From a virus, in IMG/VR virus record IMGVR_UViG_3300045988_122711: a stretch of 64,000 nucleotides of DNA, one strand, 5' to 3'. The notes beneath the pieces are model-generated. The model did no database searches. It saw nothing but the letters and a program-made list of their open reading frames with translations, and was not told the DNA's origin. Both the position numbers and the translations under genes were made by a program. Positions 44,890 through 64,000 of this stretch are shown here, in pieces (within the stretch, counting starts at the first letter, position 1; the number at the start of each line of letters is the position of its first letter).

Positions 44890-44906
44890 GAATCCGGTGA
44901 TCTCAC
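44890..44906 (+). promoter_or_regulatory. plus-oriented partial copy of conserved CCGG-GATCTCAC motif in 340-bp intergenic gap
   Basis: GAATCCGGTGATCTCAC matches 3' half of motif family at 60440/61293. Confidence 0.25.
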
Positions 44907-45896: not shown

Positions 45897-46364
45897 TTAA
45901 TATTGTGAATCATATTTTCTTTCTCTCCCGCTGTCTTCCCCTATCGGATTGTCCCATCCATATTTTACAGCCGTAGCTTTAAATAGAGGGAGTCCATAAA
46001 ATGCATAATCATCCTCACCCCAGCCTTCAAGACCTTCTTCCAGAATGTAGTTCCACATCATCACACATTCAAACATCAAACTGGCTGATATTCCTCTCTG
46101 ATTTAATGCCTTTTCAAAACCGAATCTTACGTCTTCTTCAAGCTGTTTCAAAACATTCTCCCTGGTAAATTCAACTACAGTACTGTTCCACCTTTCTTCG
46201 TTATTGTATTCTTCGTTCGGCTCCATACCGAAATCCTTTATCATGTTATATGGGATAAATTTAGCCAGTCTGTTAAAATCTCTACCGTCTAAACATTTTG
46301 ATGTTAATTCTTTAAGTTGTTCTAATGTTTTCATAAGCAATTTTGTTTTATAGGTTAATCCCAT
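45897..46364 (-). CDS. hypothetical protein
   Basis: ORF. Confidence 0.4.
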   Translation of the reverse strand: MGLTYKTKLLMKTLEQLKELTSKCLDGRDFNRLAKFIPYNMIKDFGMEPNEEYNNEERWNSTVVEFTRENVLKQLEEDVRFGFEKALNQRGISASLMFECVMMWNYILEEGLEGWGEDDYAFYGLPLFKATAVKYGWDNPIGEDSGRERKYDSQY

Positions 46365-47017
46365 CCTCCAGTAGTGTACAAAGATACATCTTCCTCCTCT
46401 ACGTTTACACCTTTAAGAGCCTGTAGAAGTTTTTTCTTTGTCTCCCGGCACATATTGTAACCATATCCTTTATACCGATATGAGCGTTCCCATGTGCTTA
46501 CTGGAAAAGGAATATTTTCATCAATGACCAGCCTCTTCATATGAAGATGTTCAAAGAATTTCTCATGGTAGAGTAGTTTGTACTCGTATGCTACTATACT
46601 TGCAGATGAGAATGGAAAATAATCATCTTCCTCTTCTTCGTATTTAGGCTCCTTGTAGTAAGCCATTTTTGCCACAGTAAAGTCGAAGCTCCTGAGAATC
46701 TCTTCAGGCTTTCCGAACTCTGACTCTATGAACTCTATCCATACCCTTTCTCCCTCTTTATGGAACGCACATACCTTCTCATTCCTGTACTTAAATTTCC
46801 ATCCTTCTTTCTGATGTTTTTCATCATTGAACAAATCAACAGCTTCCTGAAAATCGTCTTCGCTTTCAAAGAAAATATCAATATCTTTTACTTTTTCTCC
46901 GGAAAGGATATTCTTAAAACATCCACCAGCTATGAACCCCTTGTGACCTTCCATATATTTGTCAAGCCATCTTATTTGCCAGAAATTATCTGGAGTATCT
47001 ATTATAAAATTGTTCAT
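46355..47017 (-). CDS. nucleotidyltransferase-fold (Pol-beta-like minimal NTase) protein
   Basis: GFIAGGCFKNILSGEKVKDIDIFF = hG[GS]-x12-DhD signature. Confidence 0.45.
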   Translation of the reverse strand: MNNFIIDTPDNFWQIRWLDKYMEGHKGFIAGGCFKNILSGEKVKDIDIFFESEDDFQEAVDLFNDEKHQKEGWKFKYRNEKVCAFHKEGERVWIEFIESEFGKPEEILRSFDFTVAKMAYYKEPKYEEEEDDYFPFSSASIVAYEYKLLYHEKFFEHLHMKRLVIDENIPFPVSTWERSYRYKGYGYNMCRETKKKLLQALKGVNVEEEDVSLYTTGGWD

Positions 47018-58595: not shown

Positions 58596-59405
58596 TTAAA
58601 TACTTAACTCTTCAATGGTCAAGCCTTTTTCTTTTGCCCACTTTAGCATCGCGCATAATTCTGTTTCTGACTTATATTTCGGATCACGCCACGCCCATCC
58701 GAATTTATCCAGGACATGATGATATAATTCGTCGGCCTTTGCCGTGTAAATGTCTTTGAATAAATGCTCCGAACCTTCCGGTATAAGCATCTCTGTTGTT
58801 GCAAAATCGGAATACGATAAACATCCGTAAGCATATTCTGTTATTTCACTCCATGCTTCTCCGGCTTTAAATCCAAATTCTTTTACAAAAGCCAAAGTTA
58901 GATACATATTTAATAATATTGTTACATCATATCCGGAATCCGACTTTCTTTCTATTATTTCCTTTTCAAATTCCTTTAAATCTTCAGGTCCTAAAAAGAT
59001 GTATCCTGATACCGACCGGTAATTAGTCTCCGCATACTTCTTGCATTTATCATCATTGACAATCTTACTAATGTTAGATAACATCTTTTGCCTCCATTCA
59101 TCACAAAACTCTACCTCTACGTTCATCCAATCAGTACCATAATTATATTCTTTCGGATATCCGACCGATGTTACCTTTATACTATTCACGCCATATCCGT
59201 AAAGGCGTTCACTTACCTCATTCGCCCATTCCTGTACAAAAGGAATAAACTTATTGTAATAAGAATCAAAATCAAAATCCGATTCCTCCTCATATTCTGG
59301 CATCTCTTCATAATCCTGTTCAAAGAAATGACGAGGATCTGCTATTGTTTCGTAGAAACTTACGTTAATGAAACAAAACTCGTTGGTTGTCGTTTTTAAT
59401 ATCAT
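58596..59405 (-). CDS. hypothetical protein
   Basis: ORF. Confidence 0.45.
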   Translation of the reverse strand: MILKTTTNEFCFINVSFYETIADPRHFFEQDYEEMPEYEEESDFDFDSYYNKFIPFVQEWANEVSERLYGYGVNSIKVTSVGYPKEYNYGTDWMNVEVEFCDEWRQKMLSNISKIVNDDKCKKYAETNYRSVSGYIFLGPEDLKEFEKEIIERKSDSGYDVTILLNMYLTLAFVKEFGFKAGEAWSEITEYAYGCLSYSDFATTEMLIPEGSEHLFKDIYTAKADELYHHVLDKFGWAWRDPKYKSETELCAMLKWAKEKGLTIEELSI

Positions 59406-59656
59406 AACTTTTTGTATTTACGTACATTTTTCTTGCCATAGAATCTACACATGGCACGAATCTGACTATAAAATACTTTTGTCCTCCTGGCCTCAAAGTA
59501 TTTAAACATTTCTTCATTCTTTGTTTCCCAAACGTAATCCGTTTGGGAACTCATGCGATCTTTCTCCTTGCGTGAATAATGGTAATATGATACCACAACA
59601 CGTTTCATACCATTCTTTACAGGTACGATATTTACGTCTATACTATTCTCTGTCAT
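59402..59656 (-). CDS. hypothetical protein
   Basis: ORF. Confidence 0.35.
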   Translation of the reverse strand: MTENSIDVNIVPVKNGMKRVVVSYYHYSRKEKDRMSSQTDYVWETKNEEMFKYFEARRTKVFYSQIRAMCRFYGKKNVRKYKKL

Positions 59657-59679
59657 ATTATTATTGTTTTATGCATTAT

Positions 59680-59718
59680 ACAAATACAAAGAGCGCATAC
59701 CTTCACAGGCCGGCGCTC
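59680..59718 (-). terminator. probable rho-independent terminator (minus strand)
   Basis: GAGCGC...GCGCTC stem followed by U-rich tract on minus strand. Confidence 0.45.
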
Positions 59719-59775
59719 CTTTCAATAAAAATGAAAAAACTAATATTACATAAACATATTGTTTTCTACTCTTTA

Positions 59776-60009
59776 TTACAATACTTTTGTTCCGCAATTA
59801 TTATATCTTCCGTACTCTTTTTTCGTATCATTCAAGATTTCAAAAACCATCTTCTTGTGATCTTCGTTTGGTAACCTATCCTTAACAGCCGATATTACGC
59901 CCGCTATAGACGTAAAGCCTGAATCTGTTATTGAACACAGCAACACGCCTCTGTCGGCTCCGGTGCTTATTGCTGACGCCTTTATAATATCATTCTTGTA
60001 TATTCTCAT
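59776..60009 (-). CDS. hypothetical protein
   Basis: ORF. Confidence 0.35.
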   Translation of the reverse strand: MRIYKNDIIKASAISTGADRGVLLCSITDSGFTSIAGVISAVKDRLPNEDHKKMVFEILNDTKKEYGRYNNCGTKVL

Positions 60010-60187
60010 AATCTTTTGTTTTATTATCTACAAACTTATCTATATCGTCTCTTATTCTTTTTAGCACTCCGGCTATAATTTCCGGCATCTCTCCTTCGGT
60101 ACGGTTCAGAGTTTCTATCACCCCATCAATCCTACCAATTTGACGCCATAAGAAATTGGCGTCTTTCGCATTAAATTCCCCCATCAT
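59990..60187 (-). CDS. hypothetical protein
   Basis: ORF. Confidence 0.3.
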   Translation of the reverse strand: MMGEFNAKDANFLWRQIGRIDGVIETLNRTEGEMPEIIAGVLKRIRDDIDKFVDNKTKDYENIQE

Positions 60188-60419
60188 GTCTTATTTTACA
60201 GTAAACAACTTGCTTTTTTAAGCACCAGTCTTGCGATTCTGAGAGTGAACACCGTTCGGAGTTGTTAAAAAATATACAATCTTTGCAGAACATAAGAGGA
60301 TCTTCGTCGTCACCAACTACTTTGACATCATACTCTATGCCATACAATTTTAATCTAAATACATCTCCTGCTTCTTTAGAAGATAAATCCATGTCTGGAC
60401 TGAATGTTATTACTTCCAT
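60171..60419 (-). CDS. hypothetical protein
   Basis: ORF; conserved upstream motif. Confidence 0.4.
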   Translation of the reverse strand: MEVITFSPDMDLSSKEAGDVFRLKLYGIEYDVKVVGDDEDPLMFCKDCIFFNNSERCSLSESQDWCLKKQVVYCKIRHDGGI

Positions 60420-60439
60420 ATGATTATGATTTATTGTTT

Positions 60440-60469
60440 GTGAGATTCCTGGAATCGAACCAGAACCGA
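60440..60469 (-). promoter_or_regulatory. conserved promoter-like element copy A (TCGGTTCTGGTTCGATTCCAGGAATCTCAC), tRNA T-arm-like
   Basis: 29 nt upstream of ATG 60419; family of >=3 copies. Confidence 0.45.
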
Positions 60470-60512
60470 CACATACATACCGGCACGCCGCGCCATCCCT
60501 CTATGATACAGA

Positions 60513-60528
60513 AATAGGCATGCCTATT
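60513..60528. promoter_or_regulatory. perfect 16-bp palindrome AATAGGCATGCCTATT (operator-like)
   Basis: seen directly; intergenic, ~95 nt upstream of gene 60419. Confidence 0.4.
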
Positions 60529-60592
60529 CTCACGAACCGACATGCCAAAACCCAAAACTTAATTTGATGAATAAAATAGATTAACAAAAATA

Positions 60593-60907
60593 CTATTCTA
60601 ATTCTTTTATAATGTCTTTTACGATATTTAGCCTCACCTCCTTCGTTTCTGGACTAATACTGCCAAACCATCCATATATCCTCCATTCTTCTTCTGGTTC
60701 TGTAGCCATACTTTTCTTTTCCTCCAATTCCGGGAAATATATTCTCACCATTTCGTCTGAACGAAACTCATAAATATTTTTATGTTTTTTGAAATACATA
60801 AACACTACATTTCTTAACGCAACACATATGTATTCCCCATCCTCTTGCCAATCAATCATCTCATATACCTTTTTCCAAATGAATAATCGCTCTTCTTTTG
60901 TAAACAT
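60593..60907 (-). CDS. hypothetical protein
   Basis: ORF. Confidence 0.4.
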   Translation of the reverse strand: MFTKEERLFIWKKVYEMIDWQEDGEYICVALRNVVFMYFKKHKNIYEFRSDEMVRIYFPELEEKKSMATEPEEEWRIYGWFGSISPETKEVRLNIVKDIIKELE

Positions 60908-60915
60908 ATCTTTCT

Positions 60916-61263
60916 TTATTTTTGTGGTATTATTTGACTGTACGCAGACTTTTCCATGTACACAACACTATGTTCCTGTCCAGGTATTTTCTTTGCTGCT
61001 TCTTTCTTTATCGCACAATATCTCCCTGTACGATACGGATTCTTTTGATCTGATCCATCCTCGACTTCGATAATAAAACAACCTCCGTCATCTATTATCT
61101 TTTTGCAATTGTCACATACTCCGCCCGTGCATATATGATGCGGCGCCTGCCCTTTGATGTTATTCCCTAATAAAGCAATCCCCATCTCTTCGCCACATAT
61201 CATGCAGACTTCTATAGACGGATTCAATCCGTGTTCTGGATGTAATGTAATACCATCTTTCAT
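60916..61263 (-). CDS. hypothetical Cys-rich protein
   Basis: ORF; AGGAGG 8 nt upstream; conserved upstream motif. Confidence 0.45.
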   Translation of the reverse strand: MKDGITLHPEHGLNPSIEVCMICGEEMGIALLGNNIKGQAPHHICTGGVCDNCKKIIDDGGCFIIEVEDGSDQKNPYRTGRYCAIKKEAAKKIPGQEHSVVYMEKSAYSQIIPQK

Positions 61264-61292
61264 TTTCTTTCCTCCTTTGTTTTTAATGTTGT

Positions 61293-61320
61293 GTGAGATC
61301 GCCGGAATCGAACCGACCTA
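61293..61320 (-). promoter_or_regulatory. conserved promoter-like element copy B (GTAGGTCGGTTCGATTCCGGCGATCTCACAC)
   Basis: 40 nt upstream of ATG 61263, preceded by hairpin with GTCTGCGAAGAT loop. Confidence 0.45.
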
Positions 61321-61407
61321 CCGCACCATGAATCCCATAAAGCAAGTGCTCCGATCTTCGCAGACGGGAGCACTCTGTCTAAAGCATAAGAAAATTAATG
61401 AAGAAAT

Positions 61408-61488
61408 TTTTCTCACTTACGCCATAGCATCTAAAATAGCTATCAGCACTATTTCTATGACAAACATAATAGAAAATATCTTAAATGC
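61408..61488 (-). CDS. 26-aa hydrophobic peptide (speculative)
   Basis: ATG ORF MKKAFKIFSIMFVIEIVLIAILDAMA between gene 61494 and hairpin. Confidence 0.2.
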
Positions 61489-61493
61489 CTTTT

Positions 61494-61817
61494 TCATATC
61501 GCTATCTCCTTCTTCTTTATGTTTATAGTTCTTCTATACAGGATCTCTCCGGTCGTAATATCCTGTGCACTTACACTAATACGAACACAGTCCTTTAACC
61601 AACTCGGTCTGTATTTAAGCAATTCTTTAGCACTCGTTCTTAATATCATCTCTTTGGCATCTGATACCGGCATAGACCTGTTGCTTATTAGCCTACTACT
61701 TTCCGAACCTGTAGAAGATACCCAATTTATCCAAATATAATGTATTGTCCTTTCCATCTTTTTTCTTTTTACGTTCCACAATAAACTGTCCTGGCTCTGC
61801 TCCGACCTACGTTCCAC
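61494..61817 (-). CDS. hypothetical protein
   Basis: ORF; weaker copy of upstream motif (GTAGGTCGGAGCAGAGCCAGG) 45 nt 5' of ATG. Confidence 0.35.
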   Translation of the reverse strand: MERRSEQSQDSLLWNVKRKKMERTIHYIWINWVSSTGSESSRLISNRSMPVSDAKEMILRTSAKELLKYRPSWLKDCVRISVSAQDITTGEILYRRTINIKKKEIAI

Positions 61818-61888
61818 CTACAACCGCAGGCCTTAGCCCAAGGCGCCGCCTACTCCCCCTCTATGGCAGCCTGTTCGTACCTACAACA

Positions 61889-62110
61889 TCAGTCTCCATC
61901 TATACAACTATTGCTATGTGATAACAAACATTTATTCTTATAACAATCATCAAAAATACACCTATCACAACTGTAATCCTTAACTTCTACACAGTTAACT
62001 ACCTTAGCATATACTATACCATCACTACCTTCTATTCCTTTCACCCCAAAAATAGAACCTTCTACCTCCTTACTCAAATCTAAGTCAGGCGCAAAGTCAT
62101 ATACGTTCAT
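61889..62110 (-). CDS. hypothetical Cys-rich protein
   Basis: ORF. Confidence 0.35.
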   Translation of the reverse strand: MNVYDFAPDLDLSKEVEGSIFGVKGIEGSDGIVYAKVVNCVEVKDYSCDRCIFDDCYKNKCLLSHSNSCIDGD

Positions 62111-62181
62111 GTTGTTTATGTTTTAATTGTTATACATTCCGATTGAAAAAAATACTCACATAATACAGTCCTTAACCCTTA

Positions 62182-62390
62182 CCTACAGAATACTGTTTTA
62201 AAAACGCTGTAAGTCTTAATTTTGTTGGAAAATTCTACATTATGCTGTTTTAAAGCACTGCAATCCTTAATTTTGTTTGAAGAACCTACAGAATGCTGTT
62301 TTAAAACGCTGATCTGTTGAATTTTGCGGGAAGAACCTACAGAATGCTGTTTTAAAACGCTGATCTGTTGAATTTTGCGGGAAGAGAGTG
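62182..62390. repeat. four tandem ~51-bp direct repeats (two perfect, two diverged): CCTACAGAATGCTGTTTTAAAACGCTGATCTGTTGAATTTTGCGGGAAGAA
   Basis: period 51 seen directly; units at ~62182, 62234, 62285, 62336. Confidence 0.85.
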
Positions 62391-62569
62391 CCCTCCCTCT
62401 CCCCCTCTCCAACCCCGTCTAATCCTCTGTCTTTCCGCATAGAACCTGCGCTCTCGGTCTCACTACAGGCATACGGAGAGCGCTACAAGCTTATACTCTG
62501 GCATGAAGTATGGGGTATTTAGAGATAATATCATTCCATAGAGAGAATAGAGAGCCTTCAGCCCACGCC

Positions 62570-62755
62570 CTACCGCCTGCTCCTCCTATCAAGATAGATA
62601 TTTAAGCCTATAATCAAAGCCAATAAAGAAAAGCAAAAGACCATTACAATATTATACTGATCCGGTCCGTACTCCAACATAGAGCGAATACCAACCGACA
62701 GAAAATACAAGTCAGCTACTAATAAAAACCACCACATAAAATAAAAAAAATACAA
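62570..62755 (-). CDS. small two-TM membrane protein (speculative)
   Basis: hydrophobic ORF in otherwise non-coding region. Confidence 0.25.
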   Translation of the reverse strand: MYFFYFMWWFLLVADLYFLSVGIRSMLEYGPDQYNIVMVFCFSLLALIIGLNIYLDRRSRR

Positions 62756-63108
62756 TAAGTATGTCCGAAAATACGGGGATTATAAAACCTAACTAATTGA
62801 TAATCAAGCATACATAATTTTTAAGAAAAATACAATAAGCCTAATTTTCAATCTATAGAGACGAAAAAGGCGGAATCCGGAACCCTATTTTTGGCCAGAA
62901 AACCGCATAAAGTTTCGTTTTAGACCAATTTTAACGACATGATATAGACAAAATACCGGCATTATATCCAAACTATCCTATTTTAGTTTCGTTTTAGACC
63001 AATATAGCTTACATCCGCCGTTCACTCTCAGAATATCCTACCCGTAAATAGAAAGAGTAGGATACAAAAATAGGGCTGCTCCGATATTCGAAACAACCCT
63101 ACTCCTGT

Positions 63109-63315
63109 TTAAATACTGTTTATGTTTTCCTTCACGTAAGTTCGTGATGTATGGACTTTACGTTTGCATTTGTCCTTTCCCGTATCGGCATGATACGCTT
63201 CTTTGAGATCACGATACAACATAAATTCCCGATACGCTCTTTTCCGCTTTTCTTTAGCTTCTTTCCTGGACAGACCGCGGACGTCTACCATATAAGATTT
63301 AAATTTCCTTTCCAT
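63109..63315 (-). CDS. small basic protein (possible DNA-binding regulator)
   Basis: ORF, Lys/Arg-rich. Confidence 0.35.
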   Translation of the reverse strand: MERKFKSYMVDVRGLSRKEAKEKRKRAYREFMLYRDLKEAYHADTGKDKCKRKVHTSRTYVKENINSI

Positions 63316-63340
63316 TTTCTTTATGCTTTAATTATGATTA

Positions 63341-63510
63341 ACTCCAGCGGTTAAGAGCTTCGATATAGAAACCCTCCGCCTCTTTATACTCATTTTCACT
63401 GAGTGTTTCCACCGTCTCGATATAGTTACGCAATGTTATTTTTACGCAGATGTTTTTAGATTTATTGAACGCTTCAGTTAAAGCGTTGATCATTTCTTTC
63501 TTTTCCATGT
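63341..63510 (-). CDS. small hypothetical protein (56 aa)
   Basis: ATG ORF MEKKEMINALTEAF...; conserved motif 34 nt upstream. Confidence 0.3.
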
Positions 63511-63532
63511 TATTATATTGTTTATAATTTAG

Positions 63533-63560
63533 AGGTTGCTCCGGAATCGAACCGAACGCG
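63533..63560 (-). promoter_or_regulatory. conserved promoter-like element copy C (CGCGTTCGGTTCGATTCCGGAGCAACCTC)
   Basis: 34 nt upstream of ATG 63510. Confidence 0.4.
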
Positions 63561-64000
63561 CATTCCTATCCTGTACGAATTTTATGCTACAACCAACAGC
63601 CCGTAATTAGTACGTAGTTCTTGTGTACAGGCCCGTACTATGTTGTTATTATATTTTCCGTCTGCTACACAACTTAGCCACAAATAAAGGCGATTGTGTC
63701 CTTGCGTTTTGATACGGCACGTACCTACATGGTAGGCTACATGCTTGTACCCTGTAATTTAATCTACAGCCTTGTTCTATTTTTCGTGTAAGCAAGTAAG
63801 ACACGTTTCGATCTGGAGATAAACCTCGTACAACGGCATGTTTTCCAAACTGTAATCACATACCTAACATAAACTATACCTATTCGGATAGTCCATGCAG
63901 TAATACCAGCCCTTTAATTGCCAACGGCAAGGGCAACGGTATATCTATCTCCAATATGTAAAATAACTCTCTATTTTGTCAGCTTCAGTCTAAAGCATAC

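What the first reader, a model, noticed from the sequence alone, without database searches (positions are those of the whole stretch)
60440..63560. A tRNA T-arm-like 25-30-bp motif (TCGGTTCGATTCCGG-GATCTCAC) repeated at fixed distance upstream of at least three leftward genes: candidate phage-specific promoter, not tRNA
On the minus strand, TCGGTTC(TGG)TTCGATTCC(A/G)G(C/G)(A/G)ATCTCAC occurs 29, 40 and 34 nt upstream of the ATGs at 60419, 61263 and 63510. It is followed by an A-rich AAACAAT-type spacer. Weaker copies (GTAGGTCGGAGCAGAGCCAGG at 61790-61815; plus-oriented CCGGTGATCTCAC at 44890-44906) also exist. The 11-mer GGTTCGATTCC is a perfect tRNA T-stem-loop consensus, which initially suggests three tRNA genes. 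However, no D-arm, anticodon arm or complementary acceptor 5' strand can be built for any copy. Each copy is preceded by a terminator-like hairpin. The positional conservation relative to start codons argues for a promoter or 5'-leader element recognised by a phage factor (alternative sigma, phage RNAP or antiterminator). A promoter that mimics a tRNA T-arm would be notable.
Basis: seen in the sequence. Interest (0 to 1): 0.6.

Follow-up and report, generated by a model that had tools for sequence, protein, structure and literature searches.

The report
Anticodon-less tRNA mimics before phage genes
Three short RNA structures that copy the top half of a tRNA but have no anticodon sit just upstream of small genes in an abundant human-gut crAss-like phage; they most likely let the cell's tRNA-trimming enzymes cut long phage messages into separate pieces, and they are not promoters.

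Summary
The 11-mer GGTTCGATTCC occurs three times on the minus strand (60451-61, 61304-14, 63543-53). This is far more than chance gives, and no other copy exists in the window. The longer 25-30-nt motif is shared by only two of the copies.

The copies are not tRNA genes: ARAGORN and Rfam find none. Each T arm abuts a 5-7-bp acceptor-like stem in tRNA register. Copy B (60442-60499) folds as a four-arm cloverleaf whose "anticodon" arm ends in a 4-nt loop. Copy A is B without that arm.

Across more than 80 related phage contigs the stems vary but keep pairing, through G-U intermediates and some double changes, while the T loop is almost invariant. G-U pairs work only on the gene-sense strand. 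The constraint is therefore on a transcribed RNA, not on a DNA site.

There are three copies per 151-kb genome, in a conserved order. Each sits 20-29 nt before an ATG, at points where gene cassettes come and go.

Best reading: phage counterparts of plant-mitochondrial "t-elements", that is, tRNA-like signals cut by RNase P and RNase Z. The cleavage is inferred, not shown. Novelty: a new variant of a known kind. Interest is moderate.

The parts
60442..60499 (-). Element B: an anticodon-less tRNA-like cloverleaf. Parts: acceptor 5' strand GGGAUG 60494-60499; 3-bp D-like hairpin 60485-60493; 8-bp arm with a 4-nt loop 60465-60484; T arm UCUGG-UUCGAUU-CCAGG 60448-60464; acceptor 3' strand AAUCUC 60442-60447.
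   Evidence: RNAalifold on 25 distinct orthologues gives this four-arm structure. 99.2% of cells are paired, against 23-53% when the partners are slid. Model R1 scores 100.5 bits here. Variant L109/L186 changes both acceptor strands together, GGGAUG/CAUCUC to GGAAUG/CAUUC.
60420..60441 (-). A-rich, unstructured leader between element B and the ATG at 60419 (82-aa ORF 60171-60419).
   Evidence: In 47 of 79 relatives a different gene follows directly after this leader.
60513..60546 (-). Hairpin or palindrome upstream of element B (GGCAUG...CAUGCC / AAUAGGCAUGCCUAUU). It has no U tract.
   Evidence: Fold; pair counts; not called as a terminator.
61294..61337 (-). Element A: a tRNA-like 'top half'. 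Parts: acceptor 5' strand UGGGAUU 61331-61337; 13-nt linker 61318-61330; T arm GUCGG-UUCGAUU-CCGGC 61301-61317; acceptor 3' strand GAUCUCA 61294-61300.
   Evidence: R1 aligns it to element B with the long arm deleted (19.3 bits, E 0.012 on 221 kb, 0.0003 on 5 kb). T-stem variants stay paired. The competing minimum-energy stem is broken by the variants GCGGUAG to GCAGCAA.
61264..61293 (-). Leader between element A and the ATG at 61263 (115-aa ORF 60916-61263).
   Evidence: In 30 of 81 relatives an extra gene is inserted right after ...ACAACAUUAAAA.
61344..61376 (-). 10-bp hairpin upstream of element A (AGAGUGCUCC...GGAGCACUU).
   Evidence: Fold. Compensatory G-C to A-U (19 against 19 variants) and U-A to C-G (4 variants). 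No U tract.
63533..63595 (-). Element C: tRNA-like, with a 6-7-bp acceptor-like stem (U)GGUUGU/GCAACC(U) abutting the T arm. Parts: inner arm 63557-63588 (GCAU/AUGC plus AUYY/RRAU); T arm UUCGG-UUCGAUU-CCGGA 63540-63556.
   Evidence: RNAalifold on 19 distinct real variants from 89 copies. T-stem pair 3 changes C-G to U-A. Variants with ACAACCA turn the U.G and U.U end pairs into U-A. The T arm, 3' strand and trailer resemble the tRNA-Cys gene of the related phage.
63509..63532 (-). Leader between element C and the ATG at 63508 (56-aa ORF 63338-63508).
   Evidence: In 16 of 51 relatives the 56-aa gene is absent and the next gene follows the element.
63065..63101 (-). Related hairpin with a U tract, a probable intrinsic terminator: UAGGGUUGUUUCGA-AUA-UCGGAGCAGCCCUA-UUUUUG. 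It reads like element C with the insert removed and the T loop lost. It is a paralogue, not a tRNA mimic.
   Evidence: Fold at -29.5 kcal/mol, z = -5.9. Shares the CGGAGCA module (family D6).

Best explanation
**What they are.** The three copies are transcribed tRNA-like RNA structures, most likely descended from tRNA genes. They have kept the part of a tRNA that the processing enzymes read: an acceptor-like stem stacked on a canonical T arm. They have lost the anticodon loop.

**Where they sit.** They lie inside the leftward polycistronic transcripts of small genes near the probable genome end. Each is followed by a 20-29-nt A-rich leader and an ATG.

**Proposed mechanism (inferred).**
1. Host RNase P cuts at the 5' edge of the mimic. 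This leaves the upstream message ending just after its hairpin.
2. RNase Z cuts after the 3' strand. This frees the downstream message with a short, unstructured leader.
3. The long transcript is thereby punctuated, and the upstream and downstream cistrons are insulated from each other.

This is what plant-mitochondrial t-elements do. Because the elements are conserved between otherwise variable genes, they also serve as homology points where gene cassettes are swapped.

**Shown:** the structure, its strand, its conservation pattern, its copy number and its position.
**Inferred:** cleavage by RNase P and RNase Z, and its effect on expression.
For: 1. **T-arm hallmarks.** The closing G53-C61 pair and the loop UUCGAUU are present in all three copies. 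Across about 250 copies in relatives the loop is almost invariant, with a few rare variants such as UUCGAGU.
2. **T stems vary but keep pairing.** There are 13 alternative pairing-compatible states against 2 singleton mismatches.
   - Position 1 is G-C in A, C-G or U.G in B, and U-A in C.
   - B position 3 is U-A, U.G or C-G.
   - C position 3 changes from C-G to U-A.
3. **Strand.** The commonest B stem, CCUGG/CUGGG, has two G-U pairs. It can form only on the gene-sense strand.
4. **Acceptor-like stems in exact tRNA register.**
   - B variant L109/L186 changes both strands together, while the distal alternative strand is unchanged.
   - C variants convert the end mismatches to U-A.
5. **Overall fold.** The B consensus is a four-arm cloverleaf. 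A aligns to B with one arm deleted.
6. **Same layout as real tRNAs.** In the related phage csAssE-Sib, tRNA-Cys ends 17 nt before the next ATG. tRNA processing must therefore already cut these messages. None of the six tRNAs predicted in that phage is followed by CCA in the printed sequence. This suggests that the 3' ends are made by an endonuclease; that the enzyme is RNase Z is my own inference.
7. **Copy number and order.** Three copies per genome, in the conserved order C-A-B.
8. **Cassette junctions.** Gene gain and loss begin right at the 3' edge of each element.
9. **Precedent.** Plant-mitochondrial t-elements were found by screening for GGTTCRANYCC. They are non-canonical cloverleaves upstream of mRNA 5' ends and are cut by RNase Z and RNase P (PMC1920247).
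Against: - No transcript ends are available, so cleavage is untested.
- Single-sequence folding energies are no better than shuffles (z = +0.2, -0.06, -0.56).
- The Rfam tRNA model does not match. ARAGORN reports only dubious calls at 80% of its threshold.
- The acceptor-like stems are short (5-7 bp), with a mismatch or weak pair at the top in B and C.
- The shuffle control on the B alignment is not significant, because nearly all changes are one-sided wobble changes.
- The cores diverge about as fast as synonymous sites. The constraint is therefore on pairing and on the T loop only.
- A more distant phage with a 50%-identical neighbouring gene has no such element within 5 kb. The elements are lineage-specific and not indispensable.
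Confidence: 0.45

Rival explanations
1. The released small RNA is the functional product. After excision, the 45-60-nt anticodon-less tRNA mimics would act in trans. They might be decoys or ligands for tRNA-binding factors: host tRNA-targeting defences, modification enzymes, the phage's own nucleotidyltransferase-like protein, the Ro60/Y-RNA system of the related phage, or AlaRS through the G-U pair in the acceptor stem.
For: - The tRNA-like fold and the near-invariant T loop.
- The phage lineage invests in RNA handling. The window has a weak PolyA_pol-head protein at 46355-47017.
- In csAssE-Sib, Ro60, PNKP and NrnA are annotated, and a YrlA-like RNA lies next to rsr.
- Other viral contigs carry anticodon-less tRNA-like or tmRNA-end-like RNAs. 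Some have an encoded CCA and a sequence upstream (TTGACA) that I read by eye as promoter-like.
- A and B have a G-U at the third pair if the stem is counted as 7 bp.
Against: - The G-U is not strictly kept. Three of 25 B variants have A-U or G-C there.
- The element is always tied to a downstream ORF at 20-29 nt.
- No CCA is encoded.
- No Ro-binding stem and no Rfam YrlA or tmRNA match in the window.
- This rival is not exclusive of the processing model, because release needs the same cleavages.
Confidence: 0.2
2. Decaying tRNA pseudogenes, or recombination scars, with no function of their own. They would persist only because they are young and sit between genes.
For: - Element C resembles the tRNA-Cys gene of the related phage in its T arm, 3' strand and trailer (z = 6.5, T loop included).
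- The anticodon arms are lost or shortened.
- Paralogues appear to have decayed into plain hairpins (63065-63101, 61344-61376).
- The cores evolve about as fast as synonymous sites.
- The elements are absent from a more distant relative.
Against: - The 7-nt T loops are nearly invariant while the stems around them vary and stay paired. There are 13 compatible against 2 incompatible states, including double changes.
- The order C-A-B is conserved in all relatives.
- Relics should lose the loop and the pairing at the neutral rate.
Confidence: 0.15
3. An uncleaved, cis-acting 5'-UTR structure. A stable tRNA-shaped fold would protect the downstream message from 5' decay, or keep upstream sequence from pairing with the unstructured, Shine-Dalgarno-poor initiation region.
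For: - Constant placement 20-29 nt before the ATGs, followed by A-rich leaders.
- RNA-level constraint.
Against: This does not explain why the loop must be the exact tRNA T-loop consensus, or why the stem must sit in tRNA register. Any stable hairpin would do, and plain hairpins are already present upstream.
Confidence: 0.12
4. A DNA-level signal: a phage-specific promoter, possibly recognised as a hairpin as phage N4 virion RNA polymerase does. Together with the upstream hairpin it would form a terminator-promoter cassette like the PeSL elements of T4-type phages.
For: - A hairpin plus a conserved element lies between small early-type genes, at cassette junctions. This resembles PeSLs (PMC2839356, PMC4122927).
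- No promoter is known for crAss-like virion RNA polymerase. Early transcripts of phi14:2 showed no common motif (bioRxiv 10.1101/2020.03.07.982082).
- N4 has only three early promoters (my own knowledge).
Against: - Pairing is conserved through G-U on the sense strand. The template strand would carry two C-A mismatches in the commonest B stem.
- The acceptor-like strands 13-33 nt apart co-vary.
- There are only three copies, and none upstream of the other ~100 leftward genes.
- No sigma-70-type promoter match coincides with any of the three elements. The scan found 14 matches in the region against 15.5 expected from shuffles.
Confidence: 0.05

Closest known systems
t-elements of plant mitochondria (tRNA-like processing signals; Forner et al. 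2007, PMC1920247)
   Same: - Recognised by the same GGTTCRANYCC T-arm motif outside true tRNA genes.
- Non-canonical cloverleaves with a perfectly conserved T arm.
- Located just upstream of mRNA 5' ends or downstream of 3' ends, within polycistronic transcripts.
- The proposed mechanism here is the one shown there: RNase Z makes the mRNA 5' end and RNase P makes the 3' end.
   Different: - The setting is a bacteriophage genome rather than an organelle.
- Cleavage is not demonstrated here.
- The elements sit 20-29 nt from start codons and at gene-cassette junctions.
- One form (A) is reduced to an acceptor stem plus T arm with a 13-nt linker.
Canonical tRNA genes embedded in phage operons (for example tRNA-Cys, Arg, Gln and Met of csAssE-Sib)
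   Same: - Same 11-mer T arm as tRNA-Cys.
- Same strand and same layout: a short A-rich spacer, then the next ATG.
- No CCA follows the 3' end in the printed sequences.
   Different: - No anticodon loop.
- D arm vestigial or absent.
- Acceptor stem of 5-7 bp with imperfect top pairs.
- Not detected by ARAGORN or the Rfam tRNA model.
tRNA-like domain of tmRNA, and the short tmRNA-end-like RNAs seen in other viral contigs (L011 family; phi14:2 tmRNA)
   Same: - Acceptor stem plus T arm without an anticodon.
- A G-U in the acceptor stem of A and B.
- crAss-like phage phi14:2 carries a tmRNA in its early intergenic region.
   Different: - No mRNA-like domain, tag ORF or pseudoknots.
- The Rfam tmRNA model matches only the 11-nt T loop, at 7 bits.
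- The G-U is not strictly conserved.
- The discriminator and CCA are not tmRNA-like.
PeSL promoter/stem-loop cassettes of T4-type phages (PMC2839356, PMC4122927)
   Same: Conserved intergenic modules (a hairpin plus a short conserved element) that flank small variable early genes and mark the borders of insertions, deletions and replacements between close relatives.
   Different: PeSLs are DNA-level terminator-promoter units. Here the conserved element is constrained as an RNA fold with tRNA features, and no promoter consensus is present.
Bacterial Y RNA (YrlA), which has a tRNA-like module
   Same: A T-arm mimic in a non-coding RNA. The related phage encodes Ro60 and a YrlA-like RNA next to it.
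   Different: - No Ro-binding helix.
- tRNA order of arms rather than the YrlA arrangement.
- About 75 kb away from rsr in the related genome.
- No Rfam YrlA match in the window.

Membership tests
Canonical tRNA gene | Cloverleaf with a 5-bp anticodon stem and a 7-nt anticodon loop | tested here: not met
   - ARAGORN at default settings finds none.
- In the B consensus the corresponding arm is 8 bp with a 4-nt loop.
- A has a 13-nt linker instead.
- The pseudo-anticodon arm that ARAGORN proposes for C at -ps80 is broken in relatives.
Canonical tRNA gene | T arm: 5-bp stem closed by G53-C61, loop T54-Psi55-C56-R57-A58-N-Y | tested here: met
   GG-UUCGAUU-CC in all three copies. The stems covary and the loop is nearly invariant.
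Canonical tRNA gene | Score at or above the Rfam RF00005 gathering threshold | tested here: not met
   No tRNA match at gathering score, and none up to E = 10 in 60000-64000.
t-element-like tRNA-like processing signal | GGTTCRANYCC motif outside a true tRNA, within a non-canonical cloverleaf or acceptor-like stem-loop | tested here: met
   Motif. Structures. Definition from PMC1920247.
t-element-like tRNA-like processing signal | Lies in a transcribed region next to an mRNA end, on the sense strand | tested here: inconclusive
   - The sense strand is shown by the G-U pattern.
- Each element is immediately 5' of an ORF.
- Actual transcript ends are unknown.
t-element-like tRNA-like processing signal | Cleaved by RNase P at the 5' edge and RNase Z at the 3' edge | not testable with these tools
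   Needs end-mapping or in vitro cleavage.
tmRNA / tmRNA tRNA-like domain | tRNA-like domain joined to an mRNA-like tag ORF; G3-U70 strictly kept; 3' ACCA | tested here: not met
   - ARAGORN finds no tmRNA.
- The Rfam tmRNA model matches only the T loop, at 7.1 bits.
- The G-U is replaced by A-U or G-C in 3 of 25 B variants.
- The 3' tails read ACAA, CACA and UCUA.
Y RNA (YrlA) | Ro60-binding helix formed by the 5' and 3' ends, plus a tRNA-like module; usually next to rsr | tested here: not met
   No RF02553 match in the window. The YrlA-like match of the related phage is elsewhere, at Sib 72601-72705.
Phage-specific promoter / PeSL-type cassette | Conserved DNA motif recurring upstream of many genes of one temporal class, with no requirement for intramolecular pairing | tested here: not met
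   Three copies per 151-kb genome. Variation preserves pairing, including G-U.
Phage-specific promoter / PeSL-type cassette | Sits at the borders of variable gene cassettes between close relatives | tested here: met
   Two to four alternative downstream genes follow each element.
Phage-specific promoter / PeSL-type cassette | Transcription starts just downstream of the motif | not testable with these tools
   Needs mapping of primary 5' ends.
Intrinsic terminator | G+C-rich hairpin followed by a U tract | tested here: not met
   No terminator-like site is called at the three elements or at their upstream hairpins. The tails are A-rich. By eye, the related hairpin 63065-63101 has a U tract, but the scan does not call it either.

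The most novel reading that the evidence does not exclude
The elements are genes for a class of stable, anticodon-less tRNA-like small RNAs, cut out of early phage messages. After CCA addition, perhaps by the phage's own small nucleotidyltransferase-like protein, they would act in trans. They might soak up or redirect tRNA-binding factors such as tRNA-targeting defence nucleases, modification enzymes, AlaRS or EF-Tu, or the Ro60 RNA-quality-control system. Similar anticodon-less tRNA or tmRNA-end mimics seen in unrelated viral contigs would then be a widespread and unannotated phage RNA class.
Probability: 0.15. Interest if true: 0.8.

Novelty: new variant of a known kind. Interest (0 to 1): 0.5.

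Why it matters
If the reading is right, an abundant human-gut crAss-like phage lineage uses tRNA look-alikes to cut and insulate its early messages. That principle is established for mitochondria and for the MALAT1 RNA, but I found no report of it for phages in the paper library.

It would matter for four reasons:
- It explains how genes with short, Shine-Dalgarno-poor leaders are expressed from long transcripts in Bacteroidales phages.
- It identifies conserved points at which small early genes, which are often anti-defence genes, are exchanged between phages.
- It shows a gap in annotation: tRNA finders and Rfam report nothing at these loci.
- It gives a directly testable prediction, namely defined RNA ends at six coordinates.

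Tried and rejected
1. **Distal acceptor stem GUGAGA...UCUCAC (about 75-105 nt apart).** This is also what ARAGORN uses at -ps80 for copy B. Rejected: in variant L109/L186 the 3' strand changes to CAUUCAAC. The local strand compensates (GGAAUG), while the distal strand stays GUGAGG.
2. **Minimum-energy stem of copy A (GUG.GGU/AUC.CAC).** Rejected: common variants change GCGGUAG to GCAGCAA and break it.
3. **GGGCUGU as the acceptor strand of copy C (ARAGORN -ps80).** Rejected: the ACAACCA variants improve pairing with UGGUUGU and break it with GGGCUGU.
4. **Copy of a host tRNA 3' half (attP-like).** A scan of 185,579 species genomes for GGTTCGATTCYNGNNATYTCAC gave 21 hits. These were two unrelated true tRNAs, chance coding matches, and one phage contig binned into a Veillonella MAG.
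5. **Kinship with the L011 family found in IMG/VR.** The shared CUCAC/GUGAG was imposed by my search pattern, so it is not evidence of relationship. The same caveat applies to the GGGAU/AUCUC elements.
6. **Alanine-minihelix identity (G3-U70).** The G-U is not strictly kept.
7. **Known RNA families.** Rfam at gathering score and at permissive thresholds found nothing.
8. **A fourth copy.** R1 with filters off finds none; 61790-61815 is not a member.
9. **Deeper conservation.** A phage with a 50%-identical orf115 homologue has no T arm within 5 kb. One context could not be fetched.
10. **Functions of neighbouring ORFs.** There are no Pfam matches apart from one below the family's score cut-off (DUF6241, E 0.006, 17.2 bits against a cut-off of 27). 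A PHROGs call failed on a coordinate error.
11. **The literature search 'csAssE'** was uninformative.

Full report
**Setting**

The window belongs to a roughly 151-kb human-gut phage. Positions 59000-63027 are 92% identical to the end of phage csAssE-Sib (OR575929.1), and 63027-64000 match the start of that record. The csAssE-Sib annotation uses crAss-type virion names such as muzzle and ring proteins. More than 170 closely related contigs exist in IMG/VR, and 80 were fetched as L090-L169. The finding lies in a run of small leftward genes with no Pfam match above a family's own score cut-off. These genes sit next to a 1-kb non-coding stretch.

**Check of the observation**

- GGTTCGATTCC occurs exactly three times, all on the minus strand, at 60451-61, 61304-14 and 63543-53. 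About 0.7 matches with up to one mismatch are expected in the whole window.
- A generic T-arm scan finds only these three.
- ARAGORN finds no tRNA or tmRNA. Rfam finds nothing at gathering score. A permissive Rfam search finds only a 7-bit T-loop match to tmRNA.
- The longer motif ending in ATCTCAC is shared by two copies only.
- The third ATG is at 63508.
- The spacing to the ATG is similar (20-30 nt) but not fixed.
- The 'weak copy' at 61790-61815 is not a member.
- The one at 44890-44906 is a chance heptamer.
- Hairpins precede copies A and B but have no U tract, and the terminator scan does not call them.

**Anatomy**

I call the copies B (60451), A (61304) and C (63543).

| Copy | Acceptor-like stem | Between 5' strand and T arm |
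|---|---|---|
| A | UGGGAUU / GAUCUCA | 13-nt linker |
| B | GGGAU(G) / (C/A)AUCUC | 3-bp hairpin with loop GGC, then an 8-bp arm with a 4-nt loop |
| C | (U)GGUUGU / GCAACC(U) | inner arm GCAU/AUGC plus AUYY/RRAU |

- For B, RNAalifold on 25 distinct orthologous sequences gives a four-arm cloverleaf. It has no anticodon loop.
- A covariance model built from B (R1) finds B at 100 bits. It also finds A at 19 bits, aligning A as B with the long arm deleted. For C it finds only the T arm.
- For C, RNAalifold on 19 distinct real variants from 89 copies gives the acceptor stem, one inner arm and the T arm. An earlier run with hand-typed flanks gave the same structure.

**RNA or DNA?**

Across relatives the 7-nt T loop is almost invariant, while the stems vary and stay paired.

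- T-stem position 1 is G-C in A, C-G or U.G in B, and U-A in C.
- B position 3 is U-A, U.G or C-G. C position 3 changes from C-G to U-A.
- In total I count 13 alternative pairing-compatible states against 2 singleton mismatches in the three T stems. By my arithmetic that is p of about 0.004 against a 50% chance.
- In the B cloverleaf 99.2% of cells are paired, against 23-53% when the partners are slid by 1-3 columns.
- The shuffle control is not significant, because nearly all changes are one-sided wobble changes.
- The commonest B T stem, CCUGG/CUGGG, has two G-U pairs. On the opposite strand these would be C-A mismatches.

The constraint therefore acts on an RNA transcribed in the sense of the genes.

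**Which acceptor strand?**

A distal alternative, GUGAGA...UCUCAC, was considered. ARAGORN at 80% of its threshold uses it for B. It fails on variation.

- In variant L109/L186 the 3' strand becomes CAUUC. The local strand becomes GGAAUG, so G-C becomes A-U and G.U becomes G-C. The distal strand does not change.
- In C, variants with ACAACCA convert U.G and U.U into U-A with UGGUUGU. They would break the alternative strand GGGCUGU.
- In A, the competing minimum-energy stem is broken by common variants. The acceptor strands of A never vary, so they are neither supported nor refuted beyond the model alignment to B.

**Weak points**

- Folding energies of single sequences are no better than shuffles.
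- The cores diverge from the window sequence about as much as third codon positions do. Selection therefore acts on pairing and on the T loop, not on the whole sequence.
- A more distant phage lacks the elements near the homologous gene.

**Genomic behaviour**

- There are three copies per genome, in the order C-A-B in every relative that has all three.
- Right after each element the relatives differ in gene content:
  - after A, 50 have the window's gene and 30 have an extra gene;
  - after B, 30 have the window's two genes and 47 go straight to the third gene;
  - after C, 35 have the 56-aa gene and 16 lack it.
- The elements thus mark cassette borders, as PeSL modules do in T4-type phages (PMC2839356, PMC4122927).
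- Short modules of the elements recur in plain hairpins nearby. CGGAGCA occurs at 61347-60, 61798-811 and 63077-90.
- The terminator-like hairpin 63065-63101 reads like C without its insert. This suggests repeated duplication and decay.

**Origin**

- Element C resembles the relative's tRNA-Cys gene in its T arm, 3' strand and trailer: CAA(G)CCUCUAAA (z = 6.5, T loop included).
- No bacterial genome among 185,579 species carries the A/B 3' half as a tRNA. The elements are therefore not attP-type copies of a host tRNA.

**Mechanism**

In the related phage the true tRNA-Cys ends 17 nt before the next ATG. None of its six predicted tRNAs is followed by CCA in the printed sequence. tRNA processing must therefore already cut these polycistronic messages. 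That the 3' cut is made by RNase Z is my own inference.

The mimics keep what, from established knowledge, RNase P and RNase Z read: the acceptor/T-arm stack. They lack what decoding needs.

The closest documented system is the plant-mitochondrial t-element. It was found by screening for GGTTCRANYCC. It has non-canonical cloverleaves upstream of mRNA 5' ends. RNase Z makes the mRNA 5' end and RNase P makes the 3' end, and non-templated C or CCA is found on the released element (PMC1920247).

I therefore propose that A, B and C are phage t-elements:

1. RNase P cuts at about 60500, 61338 and 63596. The upstream message is left ending after its hairpin.
2. RNase Z cuts at about 60441, 61293 and 63532. 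The downstream message starts with a 20-29-nt A-rich leader.

These steps are inferred.

**Rivals**

- *The released small RNA is the product.* This is supported loosely by the RNA-handling genes of this lineage: a weak PolyA_pol-head protein at 46355-47017, and Ro60, PNKP and a YrlA-like RNA in the relative. It is also supported by other anticodon-less mimics in viral contigs. The G-U that would give alanine identity is not strictly kept.
- *Non-functional tRNA relics.* The invariant loop and the compensated stems argue against this.
- *An uncleaved 5'-UTR fold.* This does not explain the tRNA-specific features.
- *A promoter.* The strand-specific pairing constraint and the copy number contradict it. 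No promoter is known for crAss-type virion RNA polymerase, so only mapping of primary ends can exclude it fully.

**Verdict**

'Not a tRNA gene' holds, and 'promoter' does not. These are anticodon-less tRNA mimics, best explained as t-element-like processing signals at cassette borders. That makes them a new variant of a known kind, of moderate interest and readily testable.

Noticed in passing
window 62181-62385, within the non-coding stretch 62140-63100: A 51-bp unit is repeated four times in tandem. 27 independent IMG/VR contigs of related phages end inside 62150-62425. This is either a repeat that breaks assemblies or the physical genome end, with possible early promoters or an origin. The GenBank relative is linearised at window 63027.
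   Followed up: partly
window 62911-62929 and 62985-63003: A perfect 19-nt direct repeat, AGTTTCGTTTTAGACCAAT, with 74-nt spacing in the same non-coding stretch (D8). A second pair lies at 62742-62759 and 62822-62839 (D9). These could be iterons or operator-like sites.
   Followed up: no
window 63065-63101 (-), 61344-61376 (-), 61790-61865 (-): Plain hairpins and a degenerate stretch share modules with the tRNA mimics (CGGAGCA, GUAGGUCGG, CAUAGAGGG..GCGGCG). They look like decayed paralogues. One, 63065-63101, has a U tract and probably terminates transcription.
   Followed up: partly
window 46355-47017 (-): A 220-aa protein with the GG...DxD signature and a weak PolyA_pol head-domain match (E 0.06, below the cut-off). 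It has no solved relative by sequence. Its 94%-identical homologue is annotated as a CCA-adding enzyme or poly(A) polymerase in csAssE-Sib.
   Followed up: partly
L003 22601-22705 (csAssE-Sib 72601-72705), outside the window: A YrlA-like Y RNA match (28.5 bits, E 1e-3, below gathering score) lies immediately upstream of tRNA-Tyr, tRNA-Lys and a Ro60 (rsr) gene. This points to a phage-encoded Ro60/Y-RNA module.
   Followed up: partly
L011 923-1041 (-), and L015, L018, L031, L043, L044, L048, L066, L075, L077, L084-L086: A family of RNAs of about 120 nt in unrelated viral contigs. Each has a 7-bp acceptor stem (GUGAGUG/CACUCAC), the tmRNA-like box CUGGAUUCGG and a T arm, but no tag ORF. The Rfam tmRNA model matches the two ends only (29 bits, E 2e-8). 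Each is followed by 13-25 AU-rich nt and an ATG. No match was found among cultured phages.
   Followed up: partly
L184/L198/L200/L210/L236, L199, L207/L269, L209, L211, L213, L215/L238: Further anticodon-less tRNA-like elements in other viral contigs. Some have tRNA-Ala-like acceptor stems (GGGGAUG/CAUCUCC). One type has an encoded CCA and an upstream sequence that I read as promoter-like. One has a normal D arm but no anticodon arm. Many lie 20-35 nt before an ATG. The GGGAU/AUCUC stem was imposed by the search pattern.
   Followed up: no
L170 (Cellulophaga phage phi14:2) 4031-4500 and 1826-1842: ARAGORN and Rfam find a tmRNA (tag GSSVQKLAMVA*). It lies in the long non-coding stretch between g004 and g006, where abundant, stable early 'long non-coding RNAs' of unknown function were reported. 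A second lone T-arm hairpin lies in another intergenic gap.
   Followed up: partly
L300 (NZ_DXLG01000138.1, 'Veillonella sp.' MAG contig, 3.9 kb): This contig carries element A and its neighbouring gene nearly unchanged. It is a fragment of this phage binned into a bacterial MAG, so it is not evidence for the host.
   Followed up: no
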